Source: Actinomycetota bacterium (GTDB lineage: Bacteria; Actinomycetota; Aquicultoria; SKW223). From it: a stretch of DNA of 58,672 nucleotides. A model generated the notes under the pieces. The model was not told the origin of the DNA and did not search any database. It saw only the letters and a program-made list of their open reading frames with translations. Every line of letters starts with the position of its first letter. Positions within the stretch are counted from its first letter, which is position 1. The stretch is from contig JAOADC010000022.1 of NCBI GenBank assembly GCA_026417515.1, positions 1 to 58,672 of the forward strand. The letters are read 5' to 3'. Positions 14,676 through 30,050 of the stretch are shown here, piece after piece. The position numbers were made by a program, and so were the translations under genes.

Positions 14676-15785
14676 ATGACCAAGAGACTTCCAGCAGAAA
14701 AATGGCACATTTCAAAAAAGGCAAAGATGGTACCCTTTGCTGGTTATTATATGCCTCTTGCATACTCTGGCATCATAGAAGAACACCTTGCAGTAAGAGA
14801 AAGATCTGGATTTTTTGATATTTCTCATATGGGCCAGATACTTGTGAAGGGAATTGATGCAGCAGGCTGGCTAAACACGATGACATGTAACGACGTTTTT
14901 AATCTAAACCCAAATAAAGCACAGTACTCAATGTTTCTAAACGAAAATGGAGGAGTTATCGATGACATTATCGTTTATATGATCTCAGTCGATGAATTCC
15001 TCATAGTTGTCAATGCTGCCAACTTAGAAAAGGATTACAACTGGCTCAAGTCACACGAAAAGGGAATTGTTAAAGTCATAGATAAATCCGAGGAGTTTGG
15101 TCTTATTGCAATTGCTGGTAAGAAGTCGAGAGATATTCTCTCAAGAATTATTCCAACTAGCAATATACCAAACAGTTCCTTCCATTTTAAGAAAGGGGTT
15201 TATCGAGACTACGAGATTATCGTAAGTGCAACCGGATATACTGGCGAGGAAGTAACTTTTGAAATCTTCTTACCTGCTGATAAGACAGCTGAGTTTCTGG
15301 ATACCCTTTATTCAGTTGGATCAGAGTTTTTCTGCTTGCCATGTGGTATAGGCGCTCGAGATTCATTAAGAATCGAGGCATCTCTGCCTCTATACGGAAA
15401 TGAACTTAAGGAGGACAGGACACCCCTTGAAAGCGACCTAAAATGGGTTGTTAAGTTAAAGAAACCTTCAGATTTTATTGGTAAGAATGCAATTTCAAAA
15501 CAGTTAAACGAGGGATATGAAAATACCATTGGATATTTTGTTCTCAGTTCTGAGGGACCCATTCCAAGAACATCTCATAAAGTTTTTAATTCAAGTGGAG
15601 AAATAATTGGGGAAGTCACATCTGGAACATATTCTCCGTTACTTGAAAAACCAATTTTTATGGCTTTTGTAAACAAAAACTACGCAGTTCCTGGCTCGCA
15701 GGTTTATGTTGAGGTTCGAGACAAGAATCTTAGTGCTCTGGCTGTAGAGAAGCCATTCCTAAAACTGTGGAAAAAAGGAGGATGA
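14676..15785 (+). CDS. gcvT: Glycine cleavage system aminomethyltransferase T protein
   Basis: The N-terminus KAKMVPFAGYYMPLAYS and the overall GcvT pattern are present, and the gene heads the gcv cluster. Confidence 0.95.
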   Translation: MTKRLPAEKWHISKKAKMVPFAGYYMPLAYSGIIEEHLAVRERSGFFDISHMGQILVKGIDAAGWLNTMTCNDVFNLNPNKAQYSMFLNENGGVIDDIIVYMISVDEFLIVVNAANLEKDYNWLKSHEKGIVKVIDKSEEFGLIAIAGKKSRDILSRIIPTSNIPNSSFHFKKGVYRDYEIIVSATGYTGEEVTFEIFLPADKTAEFLDTLYSVGSEFFCLPCGIGARDSLRIEASLPLYGNELKEDRTPLESDLKWVVKLKKPSDFIGKNAISKQLNEGYENTIGYFVLSSEGPIPRTSHKVFNSSGEIIGEVTSGTYSPLLEKPIFMAFVNKNYAVPGSQVYVEVRDKNLSALAVEKPFLKLWKKGG

Positions 15786-16180
15786 TGAATTTGCAAAAGT
15801 ATCCAAACGATAGACTTTATTATGAACAACATGAATGGGTTAAGCAGGTTGATGAAAAAACAGTCATTGTGGGAATCTCTTATCATGCTCAGGATTCACT
15901 TGGTGACATAGTTTATATCTCAGAACCTGAAGTTGAAAAGGAAATACAAAAAGGGGATGAAATTGCTGAAATAGAATCTGTTAAAGCAGTCTCTCAAATA
16001 TACGCTCCAGTATCCGGAAGAATAGTCGAAGTCAACAAAAATGCAATAGATAATCCAGAAATAATTAACCGAGATCCTTATGAGGAAGGTTGGTTAGTAA
16101 AGATTGAATTAACCAACCCATCTGAACTTGAAGAACTGATGGATGCGAATGCCTATAGGTCTTTTGTGGAGGAAGGATAG
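15782..16180 (+). CDS. gcvH: Glycine cleavage system H protein
   Basis: It has the lipoyl-lysine motif ESVKAVS and YYEQHEWV. Tandem ATGs at 15782/15785 overlap the gcvT stop. Confidence 0.95.
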   Translation: MMNLQKYPNDRLYYEQHEWVKQVDEKTVIVGISYHAQDSLGDIVYISEPEVEKEIQKGDEIAEIESVKAVSQIYAPVSGRIVEVNKNAIDNPEIINRDPYEEGWLVKIELTNPSELEELMDANAYRSFVEEG

Positions 16181-17527
16181 GTGGACTTCGTTTCTCATAA
16201 CGATAGAGACATCTTAGAAATGTTAAAAGTAATCGGAGTCGATAATCTCGATGAACTGATCTCAAAAACCATACCAGAAAAGGCTCGCTTTTACGGACAT
16301 CTAAACTTGGGAAAACCAAAGTCTGAGCTCGAGGTGGTAAAGGAACTTGAGAAACTATCAAGGCTAAATTCACCAGAAAAAGGTTTGAAATCATTCTTAG
16401 GAGCAGGAGTCTATGACCACTTTATTCCATCAGTTGTTGAAGCAGTAACTTCTAGACCTGAATTCTTTACATCTTACACTCCGTATCAGGCAGAAGCCTC
16501 TCAGGGGACCCTTGCCGCCATCTTTGAATTTCAAACCATTATCGCCGAACTTACAGGTATGGATGTTGCAAATGCCTCTATGTATGATGGAGCAACAGCA
16601 CTGGCAGAAGCTGTTTTAATGGCACGAAGGCTTTCAAAATCTTCATTTCCAGGCAAGGTCCTTATTTTAGAACCTGTCCATCCTTTATATATCGAGGTTA
16701 CAAAGTCATACACCGAACCACATGGCATTGAATTAATAGCCAAAAAACACATAAACGGAATTCCCATGCTTGACGAATTACCAGATTCTTCTGATTTCTT
16801 TGCTCTTGTAATCCAGCAGCCAACTTTTTTTGGGACAATCCACGATTACACCGACATCATACGTAAGGCAAAAGAAAGTGGCATTCTTACAATTGTTGTC
16901 CACGACCCCCATCTTCTTTCCATCTTAGAGCCCCCAGGAACCATTGGTGCTGACATATGTGTTGGTGAAGCCCAATCATTTGGAAATCCACTTAACTTCG
17001 GCGGTCCTTTGCTTGGATACTTTGCAACCAAGAAAGAGCACCTCAGGCAAATGCCAGGCAGAATCGTTGGAGAGACTGTTGACGCTGACGGCAACAGGGC
17101 ATTTGTAATGACCCTTCAAACAAGAGAACAGCATATAAGAAGAGAAAGGGCGACATCAAACATCTGCACCAATGAAGCGCTTTGCGCTCTTGCAGCAACT
17201 GTTTATGCTTCATGGTATGGTCCTGAAGGTCTTAAAGAACTGGCAAAGACCATCCTTTTAAAAACAGATTATGCTTCAAACCTTCTCGGAAATCTGCGAA
17301 GCATCCCCTTCAGAGGTCCATTTTTCAAGGATTTTGTTGTTGCTTTAAAAAACGATGCAGAAAAAGTGGTCACTGATTCAATCGAGAAAGGTGTGATTCC
17401 AGGAATTCCCCTCAAACATATCCTGAAGGATGCAGACAGCAACCTACTTATGGTCTCTGTAACTGAAAAAAATACTAGGGAGGATATCGATCTTCTGGCT
17501 AAGATTATAGAAGAGGTGGATAGATGA
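16181..17527 (+). CDS. gcvPA: Glycine dehydrogenase (decarboxylating) subunit 1
   Basis: This is a split P protein; the GTG start follows GGAGGAAGG and the protein is 448 aa. Confidence 0.95.
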   Translation: MDFVSHNDRDILEMLKVIGVDNLDELISKTIPEKARFYGHLNLGKPKSELEVVKELEKLSRLNSPEKGLKSFLGAGVYDHFIPSVVEAVTSRPEFFTSYTPYQAEASQGTLAAIFEFQTIIAELTGMDVANASMYDGATALAEAVLMARRLSKSSFPGKVLILEPVHPLYIEVTKSYTEPHGIELIAKKHINGIPMLDELPDSSDFFALVIQQPTFFGTIHDYTDIIRKAKESGILTIVVHDPHLLSILEPPGTIGADICVGEAQSFGNPLNFGGPLLGYFATKKEHLRQMPGRIVGETVDADGNRAFVMTLQTREQHIRRERATSNICTNEALCALAATVYASWYGPEGLKELAKTILLKTDYASNLLGNLRSIPFRGPFFKDFVVALKNDAEKVVTDSIEKGVIPGIPLKHILKDADSNLLMVSVTEKNTREDIDLLAKIIEEVDR

Positions 17528-18978
17528 GAACTCCTATAATTTTTGACTATTCAAAGCCGGGAAAAAAAGCTTACAACCTTCCTGAGATAGATGTTCCAGA
17601 AAAGGAAATTTCAGAACTGATTCCTGAAAATCTAATAAGGAAAACTAAACCGAGGCTGCCTGAAGTGTCTGAGTTTGAAATTGTAAGACACTATCACAGT
17701 CTCGCCAGGCGCAACTACGCCATCGATGATGGTATTTATCCTCTTGGTTCCTGTACAATGAAATACAATCCTAGAGTCAATGAAAGAGTTGCCAAGTTGT
17801 CTGGATTTACCAATCTGCATCCACTAACACCTCAAGAACTATCTCAGGGCGCTCTCAAACTTATGTTTGACCTCGGTGAAATGCTTAAAGAGATAACAGG
17901 AATGGATGCTGTTAGCCTCGCTCCTGCTGCAGGTGCACACGGAGAACTTACCGGACTCCTTATAATGCGCACCTATTTTAAACATAAAAATGAAAAAAGA
18001 ACCAAGGTACTTATACCTGATTCTGCCCACGGCACCAATCCAGCTTCGGTAATGATGGCTGGCTTCGAACCAATCCAGATAAAGAGCAATGAAGACGGAT
18101 ACATAACCCTTAAAGAAGTTAAAGATCATCTTGATAAAGACGTAGCAGCACTTATGGTCACAAACCCAAATACGCTTGGTATTTTTGAACCAGAAATAGT
18201 GGAGATAATAGAGGCTCTTCATGAAAATGGTTCAATTGCTTATACAGATGGTGCTAACTTAAATGCTCTCATAGGAATATCAAGACCTGGCGATATAGGT
18301 TTTGATATCATACAGTTAAATCTTCATAAAACATTCTCCTCACCACATGGTGGGGGAGGACCAGGAAGCGGTCCTGTTTTAGTTAAAGAATACCTGAAAG
18401 ATTTTCTTCCAGTTCCTGTGGTTTCAGAGAAAAACGGTCATTACTTCTTAGATTACGATGTAAAAAATACCTGCGGAATGATAAAACTATTTTATGGAAA
18501 CTTCTCAGTGATGATAAAAGCCTTTACCTACATCCTAATGCTTGGCGAAAAGGGATTGGTAAAATCTTCAAAAACTGCCATTCTTAATGCAAATTATCTT
18601 AAGAAGAAGATAGAGAATCCTTATTTCAAGAACGCATCAAACCTGACACCTATGCATGAATTCGTTGTTTCGGCACTTCCTTTAAAGAAAGAAACAGGCG
18701 TTAGAGCCCTCGACATTGCAAAAGCCCTTCTTGATAGAGGACTTCATGCCCCAACAATGTATTTTCCTTTAATTGTTGAAGAAGCGCTAATGATAGAGCC
18801 CACTGAAACAGAAAGCAAGGAATCACTCGATAAATTCGCAGAGGTTATTCAGGACATAGTAAAACAAGCCTTAGAAAACAGGGATTCCATCATAAACACA
18901 CCTGTAAAAACACCCATCAAGCGAGTGAACGAAGCCCAGGCTTCTCGAAATCCAAAGTTAAAATGGCTGGCAGATTAA
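17524..18978 (+). CDS. gcvPB: Glycine dehydrogenase (decarboxylating) subunit 2
   Basis: It overlaps gcvPA by ATGA. The PLP-lysine region LNLHKTFSSPHGGGGPG is present. Confidence 0.95.
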   Translation: MRTPIIFDYSKPGKKAYNLPEIDVPEKEISELIPENLIRKTKPRLPEVSEFEIVRHYHSLARRNYAIDDGIYPLGSCTMKYNPRVNERVAKLSGFTNLHPLTPQELSQGALKLMFDLGEMLKEITGMDAVSLAPAAGAHGELTGLLIMRTYFKHKNEKRTKVLIPDSAHGTNPASVMMAGFEPIQIKSNEDGYITLKEVKDHLDKDVAALMVTNPNTLGIFEPEIVEIIEALHENGSIAYTDGANLNALIGISRPGDIGFDIIQLNLHKTFSSPHGGGGPGSGPVLVKEYLKDFLPVPVVSEKNGHYFLDYDVKNTCGMIKLFYGNFSVMIKAFTYILMLGEKGLVKSSKTAILNANYLKKKIENPYFKNASNLTPMHEFVVSALPLKKETGVRALDIAKALLDRGLHAPTMYFPLIVEEALMIEPTETESKESLDKFAEVIQDIVKQALENRDSIINTPVKTPIKRVNEAQASRNPKLKWLAD

Positions 18979-19739
18979 GATTTCTGCTTGAACCAGAAAG
19001 GTCAGGGCCTTTTAATATGGCCCGCGACTTTTACTTTCTTAAGCAACTTGATGAAAATCCTGAACTTCCTGGTATTTTTACTGTCTATTCATTTAAGAAA
19101 CCATGTCTTTCATTAGGCAAGTTTCAAAAATCAGATGACGAAATTGTTTTTTCTTCAAAAAGATGTGGATTCGATGTTGTAAGAAGACCAACAGGTGGAA
19201 GAGCCGTATTACATGGCCCTTTTGAAAAAACTTACTCTCTTATATTATCAGTGGAATATGGTTTTAAGCCACGAAAAATAAGAGAAACCTACAACAGCCT
19301 TATGCCTATTTTTGATAACTTTCTAATGCAGTTTGGAATAAAAACATCCGATTCAAAAATCTCCAAGAAGGATCTTAATACGACCCTCAAAAACATTTGC
19401 TTCCTCGAAATTCACAGGTCTGACGTTTCAGTGAACGGTAAGAAAGCATTTGGAAACGCTCTCCTCTGGTTAAGAAATGCCTTTCTAATCCACGGAAGCA
19501 TCTACCTACGATTTGATGAGGTTCTTTTTAAAGATATTTTCGGATATGAAGCCGCACAGATATTTAAAAGCCAAACTTTCTTCCTTGAAGATACTCTGAA
19601 AGAAAAAACGAATGATAAGGCCATTGTAGACGCTTTTCTTCGTTCTCTTCAAATGTTTGGTTTTGAAATTGAAAGGACAACAATCGCACCTGAAGAAGAA
19701 GCAGAAATCAAGAAACTGGAACATATATTTTCTATTTAA
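18963..19739 (+). CDS. Lipoate-protein ligase / octanoyltransferase family protein (BPL_LplA_LipB catalytic domain only)
   Basis: It has the RRPTGGRAVLHG motif, is 258 aa, overlaps gcvPB by 16 nt and sits next to its likely GcvH substrate. Confidence 0.75.
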   Translation: MAGRLRFLLEPERSGPFNMARDFYFLKQLDENPELPGIFTVYSFKKPCLSLGKFQKSDDEIVFSSKRCGFDVVRRPTGGRAVLHGPFEKTYSLILSVEYGFKPRKIRETYNSLMPIFDNFLMQFGIKTSDSKISKKDLNTTLKNICFLEIHRSDVSVNGKKAFGNALLWLRNAFLIHGSIYLRFDEVLFKDIFGYEAAQIFKSQTFFLEDTLKEKTNDKAIVDAFLRSLQMFGFEIERTTIAPEEEAEIKKLEHIFSI

Positions 19740-25891: not shown

Positions 25892-26203
25892 ATGCGAAAA
25901 GTATTTGGAAGTGCTTCAGACTTTTTTGAAGTTAAGCTTTATTATATTCAGGAAATAATACCTCAGGAATTTGATTGGGATGAACTCACAGCCTACATAG
26001 GACCAAGGACTCCTTTAGAACCAACAAGCAAAGCAAAATATGAAATTCAGTTCATAAGCAAGGAATCTGGTAAAGTCATAAAGAGGATAGAGTTTGAAAA
26101 TTCATCAGAAGCAAAACTAAAGTATCAGGAAGCAATTGACGATTTAAAAAATAGCGAGGTAATGGAGTTTACAAGTAAGTACGATCTGGTGCTGGAGGAT
26201 TAG
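25892..26203 (+). CDS. Hypothetical 103-aa protein (first gene of three-gene cassette)
   Basis: The ORF has no Shine-Dalgarno sequence, but a -10-like TAAAAT ends 6 nt before the ATG, suggesting a leaderless mRNA. Its stop overlaps the next start (TAGTG). Confidence 0.5.
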   Translation: MRKVFGSASDFFEVKLYYIQEIIPQEFDWDELTAYIGPRTPLEPTSKAKYEIQFISKESGKVIKRIEFENSSEAKLKYQEAIDDLKNSEVMEFTSKYDLVLED

Positions 26204-26649
26204 TGGGAATCTATTTTAATTATGATTACGAAGAAGGAAAGGAAGTTGAAAACTGGGTTCCTTGCTACTTGTGTGGAGAAAAGAAGGTTCTCTATGTCGA
26301 ATACCATATCAAGAAAGGACCTATCTATACGCTTCTTAACGATGAGGCTCGAAAATTATGGTCTGGGAGAGAGATAAAGATCGTCAGTGATACTTATTTA
26401 ATATGCGATGACTGCTATCAACAAAGACCTTCAGAAGATCTCATAATCTCAGAAATACTTAAGAAGAAGCGTCTATCCTCTCAACCACAAAAAGCAGAAA
26501 TCGATACAATAAAGGTTATAGAGAATGAAATCGAAGATGTTAAAGGCAAGATTACAGTACTTATGGAAAGGCTAGGGGAACTATACGAAAGGCTCGGTAG
26601 AGAAAAGGTCTTAAAGCAGAAAAAAATGCTTCAGAACAAGGAGGAATAG
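26203..26649 (+). CDS. Hypothetical zinc-ribbon (CxxC...CxxC) plus C-terminal coiled-coil protein, paralog A
   Basis: It has N-terminal MGIYFNYDY, four Cys in two CxxC pairs and a heptad-rich tail. It is a paralog of the next ORF. Confidence 0.65.
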   Translation: MGIYFNYDYEEGKEVENWVPCYLCGEKKVLYVEYHIKKGPIYTLLNDEARKLWSGREIKIVSDTYLICDDCYQQRPSEDLIISEILKKKRLSSQPQKAEIDTIKVIENEIEDVKGKITVLMERLGELYERLGREKVLKQKKMLQNKEE

Positions 26650-26651
26650 AG

Positions 26652-27089
26652 ATGGGTATTTACTTCAACTTTGATTTCAAGAACGGCAAAGAAGTGGAAC
26701 AGCCAGAAAGGTGCTATATATGCGGTAGACCGGATGTTTTATATGCTGAATACTACGTTCTTGATGGAGATGTATACCGTTTATATAAGAATGCTAGAAA
26801 AATTGTAAGAGGCAAGGAAATTCCTGTGGGCTCAAGAATTCATGCCATCTGCGAAGCCTGCCTTGAGAAATATCCTATGGAAGAGGATCTTGTTGAGGAA
26901 ATTCTTAAGAAACGCCACGAGGAAAAGAAAGCTGAAATTTATAAGGAAATACAGAATCTAACAAACGAAGCTGAAAACAAAAAACAGGAAATCGCGCTTA
27001 AAGAAAAAGAACTGGAAGTATTAAAGTCAGAGCTCGAAGAAATTTTAAACAGGATAGATAACCTAAAAAAGAACCTGGGTGAAAGTTAG
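26652..27089 (+). CDS. Hypothetical zinc-ribbon (CxxC...CxxC) plus C-terminal coiled-coil protein, paralog B
   Basis: It has N-terminal MGIYFNFDF and the same Cys spacing and EILKK linker as paralog A. A strong terminator follows. Confidence 0.65.
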   Translation: MGIYFNFDFKNGKEVEQPERCYICGRPDVLYAEYYVLDGDVYRLYKNARKIVRGKEIPVGSRIHAICEACLEKYPMEEDLVEEILKKRHEEKKAEIYKEIQNLTNEAENKKQEIALKEKELEVLKSELEEILNRIDNLKKNLGES

Positions 27090-27749: not shown

Positions 27750-27782
27750 AAAAAAAATGGGCAAGCTTTCTTAAGCCTGCCC
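27750..27782 (-). terminator. Rho-independent terminator of the peroxiredoxin gene
   Basis: The minus-strand RNA reads GGGCAGGC-UUAAGAAA-GCUUGCCC, 8 bp including one G-U pair, then A plus U8. Confidence 0.75.
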
Positions 27783-27825: not shown

Positions 27826-28545
27826 TTAGAATGCTTCGTTTGGTTTCCAGACCTCCCAGACTCTACCAACGAGATCTGGACCTGGTTTAAGTGTTTTCTT
27901 TCCTGGCACCCAACCAGAAGGTGTAGCTTCTGCTCCTCCTGTGTTTCTTACATGCTGGAAGGCTTGTATCTGTCTCATTGTTTCAGACACATTTCTTCCT
28001 ACTGGTGGAGTAAGAATTTCAATTGCCTGCACAACTCCGTCAGGATCAATTATGAAGCGGCCTCTAACGTCAACTCCCAGTTCTTCGTCATATACTCCAT
28101 ACATTTTTCCGACAGTTCCAGCTGCATCTGAAAGCATAGGGAAAGGAATTCCGCCCTCTACCATCTTTGACAGTTCGTGTTCATTCCAGATTTTGTGAAC
28201 ATAAATGCTATCAACACTCATAGATAGGATTTCGACACCCAATTTTTGGAACTCTTCGTACTTCGACGCTACCGCCGAAAGTTCAGTTGCTCAGACGAAT
28301 GTAAAATCACCGGGATAGAAGCAAAGCAGTACCCACTTTCCGAGATAATCAGAAAGTTTTACTTGAACAAACTTGCCCTTATAATATGCCGGTGCAACAA
28401 AATCTGGCGCCTTTCTGCCTACCTGTACCATCCTCCTGACCTCCTTAATTGTTGTTTCTTCAATATTTGTTTGTTTAGAAATGTTATCTTCCCCTTCTCC
28501 ATGGGCACCTACAGGTCTTGAGCATCCAACCTTCAGTTCTTCCAT
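27826..28545 (-). CDS. Peroxiredoxin with in-frame UGA (predicted selenocysteine) at the peroxidatic position (PrxU-like)
   Basis: Two track ORFs (28291-28545 and 27826-28242) are in the same frame and are joined through TGA at 28291-28293: ...[17 protein letters not shown].... The canonical-length start is ATG 28431 (201 aa); the upstream in-frame ATG 28545 also has a strong SD. Confidence 0.8.
28250..28293 (-). promoter_or_regulatory. Candidate bacterial SECIS element immediately 3' of the in-frame UGA of the peroxiredoxin
   Basis: The mRNA reads UGAGCAACUGAACUUUCGGCGGUAGCGUCGAAGUACGAAGAGUU. The upper hairpin is CUU[U]CGGCG-GUAG-CGUCGAAG, with a bulged U at +16 and G22/U23 in the apical loop. 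A 4-bp lower stem pairs AACU with AGUU. Confidence 0.6.
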
Positions 28546-28565
28546 GTTTTCACCTCCCTTTAAGG

Positions 28566-28594
28566 ATTATAGCAGAATTTATAAACATTATAAA
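28566..28594 (-). promoter_or_regulatory. Putative sigma-70 type promoter of the peroxiredoxin gene
   Basis: On the minus strand it reads TTTATA-17 nt-TATAAT, ending about 20 nt upstream of ATG 28545. Confidence 0.4.
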
Positions 28595-29102: not shown

Positions 29103-29841
29103 CTCTGAGCTCAGCCTCCATAAAACCTTTTATTCTTTGAACGGCGTCTTCGAGATATCTTCTTGGCAAGGGAGATCGAGTTCTTAAAGATTCATCAAGA
29201 GTAGATGAGTTTTGAAACTGTTGTATCACTAATTTTTCGGCGCCTATCTCCTTCAGTTTCTTTGCAGTTGCAACCACATCATCAACATTTAACAACCCAG
29301 GCACAAAGGTAAGCCTGAATTCATATTCCAATCCGTCAGACATTATTATTGTTTTTATTGATTCATAGATAGCCTCGAGGTCTACTGGGGCTCTTACAAT
29401 TTCAGGATACTTTTCAATTGGGCCTTTTATGTCCATAGCAATAAAATCGACAAGGCCATCATTTATGAGTTTCTTCAAGACCTTTGGTCTGCTTCCGTTT
29501 GTGTCGAGTTTTACTTTTAGCCCTGATTCTTTAAGCATTTTTAAGAATCCCGATATTCCAGGAGATATGGTTGGCTCGCCTCCAGTTACAACAATATGCT
29601 CAACCCACAATTTTCTTGAAACAAGATAGGAAACAAGATTATCGACATCTATGTCTTCATATTTTTCGTGGTCAATCACAAGTTCAAAGTTGTGACAGTA
29701 AGGACATCTAAAGTTGCATCCGGCAAGAAAGACAGTTGACGCCAATTTTCCTGGCCAATCGAGCATTCCTGAAGGGATGAAGCCTTTTATATGGATAGAA
29801 TTTTCTTTAACTCCGCTAATTCCGGAATCTCTCCTCTCCAA
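29095..29841 (-). CDS. nrdG: Anaerobic ribonucleoside-triphosphate reductase activating protein (radical SAM)
   Basis: It has the [10 protein letters not shown] cluster motif and DWPGK. The TTG start at 29841 is uncertain; the next canonical in-frame start is ATG 29766. Confidence 0.9.
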
Positions 29842-30050
29842 GACTTCACTTCCCTTCCGCTTTCATCGACAACTATTGTACTTGGTGTAGAAACAACCAT
29901 ATAGTAAGCACCTTCAGTAAGCCCTTCCAATTCATCTAAATTGTATGATTCAACAAAATCGTCTGAGATCTGAGAAATGACCTCTTTAGCTGCTGGGCAT
30001 TTCGGGCAATCTTTCTTGTAGAAAAACTTTACCTTGAACAACACCTGCAC
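29787..30050 (-). CDS. Thioredoxin-fold small redoxin (CPKC active site), NrdH/glutaredoxin-like
   Basis: It has KKDCPKCPAAK and is about 84 aa. AGGAGG lies upstream. Possible starts are GTG 30050, GTG 30044 and TTG 30041. Both ends overlap the neighbouring genes. Confidence 0.75.
   Translation of the reverse strand: MQVLFKVKFFYKKDCPKCPAAKEVISQISDDFVESYNLDELEGLTEGAYYMVVSTPSTIVVDESGREVKSWRGEIPELAELKKILSI

What the first reader, a model, noticed from the sequence alone, without database searches (positions are those of the whole stretch)
27826..28545. Peroxiredoxin whose peroxidatic cysteine codon is an in-frame TGA: predicted selenoprotein (PrxU-like)
The ORF track splits this gene into two pieces (28291-28545 and 27826-28242). 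They are in the same frame, 51 nt apart, and the only interruption is TGA at 28291-28293. Translation through it gives ...[14 protein letters not shown]-[TGA][28 protein letters not shown]... In the universal Prx motif this reads PxDFTFVCPTE, so the stop codon sits exactly where the peroxidatic Cys belongs. A single stop at the one catalytic redox residue, with intact sequence on both sides, is the classic signature of Sec rather than decay. A Sec-containing peroxiredoxin (PrxU) is known from Eubacterium acidaminophilum. With the canonical start at ATG 28431 the Sec would be residue 47 of a 201-aa protein. The C-terminal half has no Cys, so the mechanism would be 1-Cys(Sec) type or would use Cys in the LLCFYP segment.
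Basis: partly seen in the sequence, partly recalled or inferred. Interest (0 to 1): 0.7.

Follow-up and report, generated by a model that had tools for sequence, protein, structure and literature searches.

The report
Selenocysteine peroxiredoxin (PrxU) gene
This is an intact gene for a peroxide-destroying enzyme whose catalytic residue is selenocysteine, encoded by a recoded TGA stop codon; it belongs to the already curated PrxU family, so it is a correct call but not a surprise.

Summary
The minus-strand ORF 27826-28545 has one in-frame TGA (28291-28293), exactly at the peroxidatic-Cys codon of the PxDFTFV(C)xTE motif.

The interpretation as a PrxU-like selenoprotein is supported:
- The protein scores 415 bits on NCBIfam NF040737 "peroxi_PrxU" (cutoff 270).
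- 77 of 78 close homologues from many phyla carry TGA at the same codon.
- A hairpin 13 nt downstream has a GU loop. It pairs in 95.6% of cells, with 113 double-sided compensatory changes.
- Syntenic relatives from four independent samples keep the TGA. Their codon differences are mostly synonymous on both sides of it.
- TGA ends 16 of the 62 window ORFs, so the genetic code is standard.

Two details need correction. The family model, the homologues, the promoter and a strong SD put the start at ATG 28545. That gives 239 aa with Sec85, not Sec47 of 201 aa.

The internal ATG 28431 keeps a conserved AAGGAGGT across phyla, so a 22-kDa short isoform may also be made.

The contig carries no Sec machinery and the rest of the genome could not be reached.

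This is a new member of a known kind, of low-to-moderate interest.

The parts
28566..28594 (-). Promoter-like site: TTTATA, 17-nt spacer, TG-extended TATAAT
   Evidence: 10 of 12 matches, TG before the -10. It would place the transcript start a few nt upstream of the SD of ATG 28545. Consensus match only; function is inferred.
28551..28560 (-). Shine-Dalgarno sequence (AAGGGAGGTG) for the long-form start
   Evidence: 8-nt match (GGAGGTGA) to the SD consensus, with about 5-6 nt spacing. 62 of 73 homologous loci have an SD of at least 5 nt at the equivalent start.
27826..28545 (-). prxU coding sequence, long form: 239 aa plus stop, with Sec at residue 85
   Evidence: (NF040737 covers residues 5-236 = profile positions 1-232 of 233).
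28432..28545 (-). N-terminal extension (residues 1-38): G-C-S-R-P motif followed by a charged, variable linker
   Evidence: the extension is present in frame in about 74 of 78 loci, and Cys8 is at least 90% conserved. AF2 of a Cys-form homologue gives pLDDT below 56 for residues 1-36, so the arm is predicted flexible. No solved structure covers it.
28513..28527 (-). G7-C8-S9-R10-P11 motif (Cys8 codon TGC at 28522-28524), candidate resolving thiol
   Evidence: The role is inferred, not shown.
28439..28446 (-). Internal in-frame Shine-Dalgarno sequence AAGGAGGT, 7 nt before ATG 28431
   Evidence: 65 of 74 loci have an SD of at least 5 nt here. Mean match length is 6.68 against 3.72 after synonymous resampling. 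In the window the motif is built from minor codons (AAG GAG GTC AGG AGG).
28429..28431 (-). Internal ATG (Met39), possible start of a 201-aa, 22.4-kDa short isoform.
   Evidence: Met at least 90% conserved; masses. Use of this start is inferred. It is absent in the syntenic relative L081.
28321..28323 (-). Cys75 codon (LLCFYP), family-specific invariant Cys
   Evidence: invariant in 99 sequences. It is Phe in typical 2-Cys Prx (alignments).
28291..28293 (-). UGA codon read as selenocysteine (Sec85), the peroxidatic residue
28260..28282 (-). SECIS hairpin: UUUCGGCG-GUAG-CGUCGAAG (8 bp, 28280-28261). An alternative fold has 9 bp with a bulged U (28282-28260). The loop G and U sit at +22 and +23 from the U of UGA.
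   Evidence: Syntenic relatives have the same hairpin, with loops GUGG or GUUG. The family-wide hairpin covaries. It is absent in the TGT (L066) and TCA (L085) forms.
27922..27924 (-). Thr208 codon at the position of the canonical C-terminal resolving Cys (EVCPAGW in 2-Cys Prx, EATPSGW here)
27750..27782 (-). Intrinsic terminator-like hairpin GGGCAGGCTT-AAGA-AAGCTTGCCC followed by a T run
   Evidence: The unit is therefore probably monocistronic.

Best explanation
The locus is an intact, monocistronic prxU gene for a thioredoxin-dependent peroxiredoxin of the Prx1/AhpC fold. The peroxidatic residue is selenocysteine.

Recoding: during translation, the UGA at 28291-28293 is read by SelB and Sec-tRNA(Sec). 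A SECIS hairpin 11-13 nt downstream (28260-28282) recruits them. It presents a G-U dinucleotide in its apical loop.

Catalysis: the Sec85 selenolate sits in the P78-x3-T82-x2-U85 plus R161 active site. It reduces H2O2 or an organic hydroperoxide and becomes a selenenic acid.

Recycling: the canonical C-terminal resolving Cys is replaced by Thr208. The selenenic acid is therefore most likely captured as a selenenylsulfide by one of two family-specific cysteines. One is Cys8, on a flexible 38-residue N-terminal arm (G-C-x-R-P motif). The other is the invariant Cys75 (LLCFYP). A thioredoxin-type reductant then recycles the enzyme.

Start sites: the main product starts at ATG 28545 (239 aa, 26.6 kDa). 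A conserved internal SD plus ATG 28431 may additionally give a 201-aa, 22.4-kDa form without the arm.

What is shown and what is inferred: gene integrity, family membership, the conserved UGA, the SECIS structure and the conservation of the extension are shown. Sec insertion in this organism, the identity of the resolving thiol, the reductant and use of the second start are inferred.
For: - Sequence and frame.
- Domains: Pfam AhpC-TSA 8e-39. NCBIfam NF040737 peroxi_PrxU equivalog, 8e-125, 415 bits against cutoff 270, covering residues 5-236.
- Fold: the core, residues 41-226, aligns with solved typical 2-Cys Prx (BAS1 5zte 4e-49, PRDX2, AhpC). The stop falls on CP, and Thr falls on the canonical CR.
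- TGA conservation: 77 of 78 homologous loci have TGA at the CP codon and one has TGT. The loci come from Desulfobacterota, Spirochaetota, Gemmatimonadota, Chloroflexota, Bacillota, Actinomycetota and others.
- SECIS: 8 pairs, 95.6% of cells paired, 113 cells changed on both sides. Covariation is 0.472 against 0.146 in shuffles (0 of 500 reach it), and 34-75% of cells pair when the partner is slid. The loop-closing G-C and A-U pairs covary, 41 to 35.
- The window and its syntenic relatives share a hairpin with the 3' arm shifted by 1 nt and loop GU(A/G/U)G.
- The hairpin is lost in the Cys form L066 and the Ser form L085.
- Four independent samples keep the gene order dut, prxU with TGA, macro.
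- Codon differences to these relatives in the core are 88-92 synonymous against 32-33 non-synonymous.
- TGA is the ordinary stop of 16 of 62 window ORFs.
- Sec-Prx is an experimentally established selenoprotein family (PMC13188914 Table 1 and its ref. 83; PMC1794560).
- Long start. RefSeq annotates the long form for a Cys homologue.
- Conservation of Cys8 and Cys75.
Against: - No tRNA-Sec, selA, selB or selD lies on this 58.7-kb contig. The rest of the genome could not be reached, so Sec decoding in this organism is not demonstrated.
- The local hairpin alone is not stronger than shuffled sequence (z = 0.28). Its support comes from comparison with relatives.
- Part of the hairpin's sequence conservation could reflect constraint on the encoded S-A-V-A-(S/E)-K peptide.
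- One close syntenic relative (L085) has replaced Sec by Ser and lost the hairpin. Decay of this gene therefore does occur in the lineage.
- AF2 does not dock the N-terminal arm, so there is no structural support for Cys8 as the resolving residue.
Confidence: 0.88

Rival explanations
1. Pseudogene: a nonsense mutation inactivated an ordinary Cys peroxiredoxin, and the two pieces are decaying.
For: An in-frame stop splits the ORF. One syntenic relative (L085) shows real decay of the redox residues. Sec machinery has not been shown.
Against: - TGA sits at exactly this codon in 77 of 78 homologues across phyla.
- There are no other disruptions.
- The excess of synonymous over non-synonymous differences to relatives, 88-92 against 32-33, indicates purifying selection.
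- The SECIS hairpin is retained.
- The full-length HMM score is far above the cutoff.
Confidence: 0.04
2. Sequencing or assembly error: the true codon is TGC or TGT.
For: Single-base errors occur in metagenome assemblies, and the read data are not available here.
Against: Syntenic relatives from four independent samples and assemblers (ENA ERZ650669, JGI 3300020139, SRR7067823, SRR11866717) all have TGA. The downstream SECIS hairpin is specific to the TGA forms and is missing in the TGT and TCA forms.
Confidence: 0.02
3. Alternative genetic code: TGA is read as Trp or Gly throughout this organism. Public gene calls give 'W' at this position in many homologues.
For: Many database homologues carry W at the CP position.
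Against: TGA terminates 16 of 62 well-supported ORFs in the window, and there is only one in-frame TGA. The W comes from TGA in ordinary-code genomes of many phyla. Trp or Gly at the peroxidatic position would abolish catalysis.
Confidence: 0.01
4. The gene model of the first reader is the only one used. Translation starts only at ATG 28431 (201 aa, Sec47), and the upstream 38 codons are an untranslated or separately acting leader.
For: - The internal ATG has a perfect AAGGAGGT at 7 nt. This is conserved in 65 of 74 loci beyond what the amino acids require.
- The short form has the 22-kDa size that I recall for purified E. acidaminophilum PrxU (from memory; the paper is not held).
- In L085 the core is translated from this ATG alone.
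- L045 lacks the extension.
Against: - The extension stays in frame and free of stops in about 74 of 78 loci despite variable length. The G-C-x-R-P motif is conserved at the protein level.
- Some members have no Met at the internal site: L081-L083, L050, L056 and L063.
- The curated NF040737 profile and RefSeq models include the extension.
- The promoter and a strong SD sit directly before ATG 28545.
Confidence: 0.1

Closest known systems
PrxU, the selenocysteine-containing peroxiredoxin of Eubacterium (Peptoclostridium) acidaminophilum (Söhling et al. 2001). Curated as NCBIfam NF040737 'peroxi_PrxU' and listed as the verified selenoprotein family 'Peroxiredoxin (Prx), TxxU' in PMC13188914 and PMC9312934.
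   Same: - Full-length HMM match far above the cutoff.
- Sec at the peroxidatic position of PxxxTxxU.
- No C-terminal resolving Cys.
- N-terminal extension covered by the profile.
- SECIS hairpin directly downstream of UGA.
   Different: - At most about 78% identity to any sequence retrieved.
- It comes from an uncultured lineage whose nearest named RecA relatives are deep-branching Actinomycetota MAGs, such as Ca. Aquicultor, at 73-76% identity.
- Its SECIS uses a 3' arm shifted by one nucleotide and a GUAG loop, not the family's usual (G/A)GU(C/U) loop.
Typical 2-Cys peroxiredoxins of the Prx1/AhpC subfamily (e.g. Arabidopsis BAS1 5zte, human PRDX2 1qmv, AhpC 1we0)
   Same: - Same fold and active-site residues (Pro, Thr, Arg) over residues 41-226, E = 4e-49.
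- Same 1-cysPrx_C-type C-terminal region.
   Different: - CP is Sec instead of Cys.
- The C-terminal resolving Cys (VCP) is Thr (ATP).
- There is an extra invariant Cys75, where these enzymes have Phe.
- There is an extra 38-residue N-terminal arm with Cys8, and no solved structure covers it.
Bacterial SECIS elements bound by SelB (E. coli fdhF, Moorella thermoacetica fdhA). This comparison rests on established knowledge, not on a tool result.
   Same: - A hairpin starts about 11 nt after UGA.
- An exposed G-U lies in the apical loop, about 22-23 nt from the U of UGA.
- The alternative fold has a bulged U 6 nt 5' of the loop G, as in fdhF.
   Different: - No sequence similarity beyond the GU.
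- No Rfam model matches it.
- Binding to SelB has not been tested.
Prx-like thiol:disulfide oxidoreductase selenoproteins (UxxC/UxxU) and thiol peroxidase Prx-SUH (CxxU), from PMC13188914 Table 1
   Same: AhpC-TSA or thioredoxin-fold selenoproteins of anaerobes.
   Different: Their Sec lies in a UxxC or CxxU redox motif, not at the TxxU peroxidatic position. The window protein has FTFVUATE with no adjacent Cys, so it is not one of them.
Bacterial genes that give two in-frame isoforms by internal initiation (ClpB, IF2, CheA). From established knowledge; relevant only to the secondary observation.
   Same: A conserved in-frame SD plus ATG inside the ORF, about 38 codons downstream of the first start.
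   Different: Use of the internal start is not demonstrated for any PrxU in the material I could read.

Membership tests
PrxU selenoperoxiredoxin (NCBIfam NF040737) | Whole-protein HMM score above the curated cutoff, with end-to-end coverage | tested here: met
   415.1 bits against cutoff 270. Residues 5-236 match profile positions 1-232 of 233. The next best model is AhpC TIGR03137, at 188.8 bits, below its cutoff of 272.
PrxU selenoperoxiredoxin (NCBIfam NF040737) | Sec (UGA) or Cys at the peroxidatic position of PxDFTFV(U/C)xTE | tested here: met
   TGA at 28291-28293. 77 of 78 homologous loci have TGA and one has TGT.
PrxU selenoperoxiredoxin (NCBIfam NF040737) | SECIS hairpin immediately 3' of the UGA | tested here: met
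   The window has a hairpin of 8-9 bp with loop GUAG at 28260-28282. The family helix is 95.6% paired, with covariation 0.472 against 0.146 in shuffles. The window's hairpin register is shared with syntenic relatives L081-L084.
PrxU selenoperoxiredoxin (NCBIfam NF040737) | N-terminal extension with a conserved Cys (G-C-x-R/K-P), and absence of the C-terminal resolving Cys | tested here: met
   [11 protein letters not shown]... The extension Cys (Cys8 in the window) is at least 90% conserved. EATPSGW replaces EVCPAGW.
PrxU selenoperoxiredoxin (NCBIfam NF040737) | Host encodes the Sec insertion machinery (selA, selB, selC, selD) | not testable with these tools
   None of these lies on the contig. 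The window is the entire contig. The source genome is not in the genome collection scanned.
PrxU selenoperoxiredoxin (NCBIfam NF040737) | Selenium incorporation and thioredoxin-dependent peroxidase activity | not testable with these tools
   This needs 75Se labelling or mass spectrometry, plus enzyme assays.
Typical 2-Cys peroxiredoxin (Prx1/AhpC subfamily) | Prx fold with active-site Pro, Thr, CP and Arg | tested here: met
   P78, T82, U85 and R161 are invariant columns and align to BAS1 and PRDX2. The AF2 core of a homologue has pLDDT above 90.
Typical 2-Cys peroxiredoxin (Prx1/AhpC subfamily) | Resolving Cys in the C-terminal arm (VCP motif) | tested here: not met
   Thr208 occupies this position (ATP). 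There is no Cys after residue 85.
Bacterial SECIS (SelB-binding hairpin) | A stem-loop starting about 11 nt after UGA, with G (and U) exposed at the start of the apical loop | tested here: met
   The stem starts 11-13 nt after UGA. The loop is G28272 U28271 A G, and the GU is invariant in all 77 TGA-bearing sequences (columns 25-26 of A2).
Bacterial SECIS (SelB-binding hairpin) | Binding by SelB and Sec-dependent read-through | not testable with these tools
   This needs a reporter or binding assay.

The most novel reading that the evidence does not exclude
PrxU genes across many phyla may encode two in-frame products from one mRNA. The long form carries a disordered N-terminal tether ending in a G-C-x-R-P cysteine. 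The short form is a 22-kDa catalytic core, started at a nucleotide-level-conserved internal SD plus AUG. The tethered Cys8, possibly together with the invariant Cys75, would act as a built-in resolving thiol. It would capture the Sec85 selenenic acid as a selenenylsulfide and hand it to thioredoxin. That would be an N-terminal-arm variant of the 2-Cys mechanism, perhaps working in mixed long/short oligomers. One relative (L085) has lost Sec, lost Cys75 and disconnected the Cys8 peptide together, which fits a functional link between the three. I found no description of this arm or of the internal start in the papers I could search. The curated NCBIfam profile does already include the extension.
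Probability: 0.25. Interest if true: 0.5.

Novelty: new member of a known kind. Interest (0 to 1): 0.3.

Why it matters
The practical value lies in annotation. Standard gene callers split this gene into two fragments, as the ORF list does here. Others translate the TGA as Trp: many public homologues carry 'W' at the catalytic residue. The correct model is a 239-aa selenoprotein.

The gene also marks this uncultured, probably deep-branching actinomycetotal anaerobe as a likely Sec user. Its peroxide defence would then depend on selenium.

It adds nothing to the biology of selenoproteins as a class. Sec-peroxiredoxins have been known since 2001 and are common in anaerobes (PMC1794560, PMC13188914).

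The modest extra interest lies in the family-wide features seen on the way: the N-terminal Cys arm, the invariant Cys75 and the conserved internal start signal. These bear on how a Sec-peroxiredoxin without a canonical resolving Cys is recycled.

Tried and rejected
- Rfam: no hit at gathering thresholds on the whole window. A permissive scan of 28150-28350 gave only a chance hit. This is uninformative, because no Rfam model matched this hairpin.
- ARAGORN found no tRNA or tRNA-Sec on the contig.
- A scan for other TGA-split genes, requiring at least 40 aa on each side, found no other plausible one. It is not exhaustive for Sec close to a protein end.
- Folding the 67-nt segment alone gave z = 0.28. 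That does not discriminate, so I relied on comparative analysis instead.
- An exact look-up of the dUTPase product found nothing, probably because the gene start was called differently.
- The genome-contig scan did not contain the source genome (best identity 76%), so the Sec machinery could not be sought.
- I considered walking along the 291-kb contig of a relative. I rejected it as too costly and unlikely to reach the sel genes.
- The RecA search gave only a coarse placement. The nearest named hits are Actinomycetota MAGs at 73-76%.
- The original PrxU paper is not held. A search with the Proteocatella PrxU did not retrieve a named E. acidaminophilum entry. The figures '203 aa, 22 kDa, Sec47' for the published protein therefore rest on my memory only.
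- AF2 of the closest Cys-form homologue, with 99 aligned sequences, left residues 1-36 at low confidence. This gives no structural evidence for or against docking of Cys8 at the active site.
- I considered a lipoprotein or signal-peptide reading of the N-terminal Cys and rejected it, because no hydrophobic segment precedes it.
- I considered a formylglycine (CxPxR) motif and rejected it, because the motif is C-x-R-P.
Full report
OBSERVATION

The minus strand from 28545 to 27826 is one reading frame of 240 codons. Its only interruption is TGA at 28293-28291, in the context ...[47 protein letters not shown].... With Cys substituted for the stop, the product matches Pfam AhpC-TSA (8e-39), Redoxin and 1-cysPrx_C. 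Residues 41-226 align end to end with solved typical 2-Cys peroxiredoxins: BAS1 5zte at 4e-49, then PRDX2 and AhpC. The stop lies exactly on the peroxidatic Cys.

IS IT A REAL SELENOPROTEIN GENE?

Five independent lines of evidence say yes.

(i) Family membership. The protein scores 415 bits on the NCBIfam equivalog NF040737 "peroxi_PrxU", whose cutoff is 270. The match covers residues 5-236 and profile positions 1-232 of 233.

(ii) The TGA is conserved in relatives. A scan of one genome per species returned 80 close homologues at 62-76% identity. They come from Desulfobacterota, Spirochaetota, Gemmatimonadota, Chloroflexota, Bacillota, Actinomycetota, Calditrichota and other phyla. In 78 of them the motif could be read. 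Of these, 77 have TGA at the same codon and one (L066) has TGT. Many homologues in the protein collection show "W" at this residue. That is TGA translated as Trp by the gene caller.

(iii) A SECIS element.
- In an ungapped alignment of 77 TGA-bearing sequences, a hairpin begins 13 nt after the UGA (columns 17-34 of A2). It pairs in 95.6% of cells.
- 113 cells are changed on both sides. The arms include UUUCGGC/GCCGAAA, UCUCCGC/GCGGAGA, UAGCGGC/GCCGCUA and UGUCGGC/GCCGACA.
- The covariation score is 0.472 against 0.146 in shuffles, and 0 of 500 shuffles reach it. When the partner is slid by 1-3 columns, pairing drops to 34-75%.
- The loop is always x-G-U-x'. The flanking G-C and A-U pairs covary, 41 to 35.
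- By established knowledge, an exposed GU is what SelB recognises.
- The window's own hairpin is UUUCGGCG-GUAG-CGUCGAAG (28280-28261). RNAfold prefers an alternative of 9 bp with a bulged U, spanning 28282-28260.
- Its 3' arm is shifted by one nucleotide relative to the family majority, because the encoded peptide is AVASK rather than AVAEK. The GU stays at the same distance from UGA, at +22 and +23.
- The same shifted hairpin occurs in the syntenic relatives L081-L084, with loops GUGG or GUUG.
- The TGT form (L066) and the TCA form (L085) have no such hairpin.

(iv) It is not a sequencing error or a dead gene. Contigs from four independent samples carry the same gene order: nrdD, small Trx-like ORF, nrdG, dut, prxU, macro. 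The samples are ENA ERZ650669, JGI 3300020139, SRR7067823 and SRR11866717. All keep the TGA. In the core, codon differences to the window are 88-92 synonymous against 32-33 non-synonymous.

(v) The genetic code is standard. TGA terminates 16 of the 62 main ORFs, and this is the only in-frame TGA.

WHAT COULD NOT BE SHOWN

The window is a complete 58,672-bp NCBI contig made up of housekeeping genes. These include his, pnp, dapB, rnj, ftsK, the gcvTHP genes, hpt, nrdDG, lexA, hflX, miaAB, rny, recA, der, ispH, aroA and others. It has no tRNA gene, no Rfam hit and no selA, selB or selD. The source genome is not in the genome collection.

The lineage is uncultured. The nearest named RecA relatives, at 73-76% identity, are Actinomycetota MAGs including Ca. 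Aquicultor. Neighbouring genes in relatives hit the actinobacterial families RsiG and Rv1828_C.

GENE MODEL

The evidence favours ATG 28545, giving 239 aa, 26.6 kDa and Sec85.
- Most homologues are 233-242 aa long.
- The curated profile covers the extension.
- RefSeq annotates the long form for a Cys homologue, P0276, which starts MSYCDRP....
- ATG 28545 is preceded by AAGGGAGGTG and by a TG-extended TATAAT promoter-like site at 28594-28566.
- The extension remains in frame and free of stops in about 74 of 78 loci, even though the linker varies in length and sequence.
- Several members, including the syntenic L081-L083, have no Met at the internal position.

The extension begins with a conserved G-C-x-R/K-P motif (GCSRP here, usually GCARPTGGxVGE). 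Its Cys is at least 90% conserved. A charged linker follows. AF2 leaves the linker at low confidence: pLDDT is below 56 for residues 1-36, while the core is above 90.

A terminator-like hairpin at 27782-27759 closes a monocistronic unit.

A SECONDARY OBSERVATION: THE INTERNAL START SIGNAL

The internal ATG 28431 is itself preceded, at 7 nt, by AAGGAGGT. In the window this is built from minor codons (AAG GAG GTC AGG AGG) in a 39% GC genome. Across the family, 74 loci have this ATG and 65 of them have an SD match of at least 5 nt. The mean match is 6.68 nt, against 3.72 after synonymous resampling with each gene's own codon usage. GAG and AAG are enriched there, at 0.76 and 0.67 against 0.48 and 0.52 elsewhere in the genes. 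This points to selection at the nucleotide level for an internal initiation site.

The short product would be 22.4 kDa. From memory only, that is the size reported for the purified E. acidaminophilum protein; the paper is not held.

One relative, L085, has a TAG between the arm and the core and starts the core at this ATG. The same gene has Ser (TCA) for Sec, has lost Cys75 and has lost the hairpin. It is a single case, but all three redox-candidate residues are lost or disconnected together.

MECHANISM

Shown: a Prx1/AhpC-type active site, with P78, T82, U85 and R161 as invariant columns, and Sec at CP. The canonical resolving Cys is replaced by Thr208 (EATPSGW against EVCPAGW). The only other cysteines are Cys8 and Cys75, and both are family-specific and conserved.

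Inferred: Sec85-Se(-) reduces the peroxide and becomes a selenenic acid. This is trapped as a selenenylsulfide by Cys8 on the flexible arm or by Cys75, or is attacked directly by thioredoxin. Thioredoxin then regenerates the enzyme. The family product name is "thioredoxin-dependent peroxiredoxin". A small CPKC thioredoxin-like ORF lies about 1.2 kb away, between nrdD and nrdG. Its link to PrxU is speculative.

COMPARISON WITH WHAT IS KNOWN

Sec-containing peroxiredoxin is one of the experimentally verified prokaryotic selenoprotein families. It is listed as "Peroxiredoxin (Prx), PF00578, TxxU" in PMC13188914 Table 1, which cites Söhling et al. 2001. Twelve were already counted in 2006, in Syntrophus, Syntrophobacter, Geobacter metallireducens, Anaeromyxobacter, Alkaliphilus, Symbiobacterium and others (PMC1794560). 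prxU is mentioned for Desulfotignum and Desulfobacterium (PMC4046663).

The window gene meets every sequence-level criterion of that family. It fails the typical 2-Cys criterion of a C-terminal resolving Cys, as the whole PrxU family does. It is not one of the UxxC or CxxU Prx-like selenoproteins.

VERDICT

The finding is correct and well observed, but it describes a new member of a known, curated family. Interest is low to moderate (0.3). The most novel reading not excluded is the dual-isoform, tethered-resolving-cysteine model for PrxU. It rests on conservation statistics only. I give it about 0.25 probability.

Noticed in passing
L085:857-1566 (JGI 3300043544 contig Ga0453690_003828), syntenic with window 27826-28545: This is a close relative in the same dut-prx-macro context. 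The Sec codon is TCA (Ser). The LLCFYP Cys is gone (MMIFYP), so the core has no Cys at all. The SECIS hairpin is degraded. The N-terminal GCARP peptide is a separate 35-aa ORF, ending in TAG just before the retained internal SD plus ATG. All three redox candidates are lost or disconnected together.
   Followed up: partly
window 28429-28446 (-), and the equivalent site in 74 related loci: An in-frame internal Shine-Dalgarno (AAGGAGGT) plus ATG lies inside prxU and is conserved across phyla at the nucleotide level. The SD match is 6.68 nt, against 3.72 expected after synonymous resampling. This suggests a second, 22-kDa isoform.
   Followed up: partly
window 29787-30050 (-): An 87-aa thioredoxin-like ORF with a CPKC motif lies between nrdD and nrdG and overlaps the 3' end of nrdD by about 65 nt. 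It is conserved as an 84-aa ORF (Thioredoxin_3, weak hit) in the syntenic relatives. It could be a NrdH-like reductant for the anaerobic ribonucleotide reductase, or for PrxU.
   Followed up: no
window 25892-27089 (+): Three small ORFs lie in tandem. The last two (26203-26649 and 26652-27089) are paralogues, starting (M/V)GIYFN(Y/F)D(Y/F)..., each with two Cys-x-x-Cys pairs (CxxC...CxxC) and a coiled-coil tail. The equivalent genes in relatives have no Pfam hit.
   Followed up: no
protein collection, e.g. P0001, P0002, P0008, P0018, P0028: Many public PrxU homologues are stored with Trp (W) at the catalytic position, because the gene caller read TGA as Trp. This annotation artefact hides the selenoprotein and would mislead alignments.
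   Followed up: partly
window 14676-19739 (+): A complete glycine cleavage cluster (gcvT, gcvH, gcvPA, gcvPB) is followed by a lipoate-protein ligase-like gene. There are no glycine reductase selenoprotein genes (grdA, grdB) on the contig.
   Followed up: no
whole window; L081-L084: The contig belongs to an uncultured lineage. The nearest named RecA relatives are deep-branching Actinomycetota MAGs (Ca. Aquicultor, Ca. Oleimmundimicrobium) at 73-76% identity. Unnamed relatives at 90-96% occur in several metagenomes. GC is 39%, and many genes start with TTG or GTG.
   Followed up: partly
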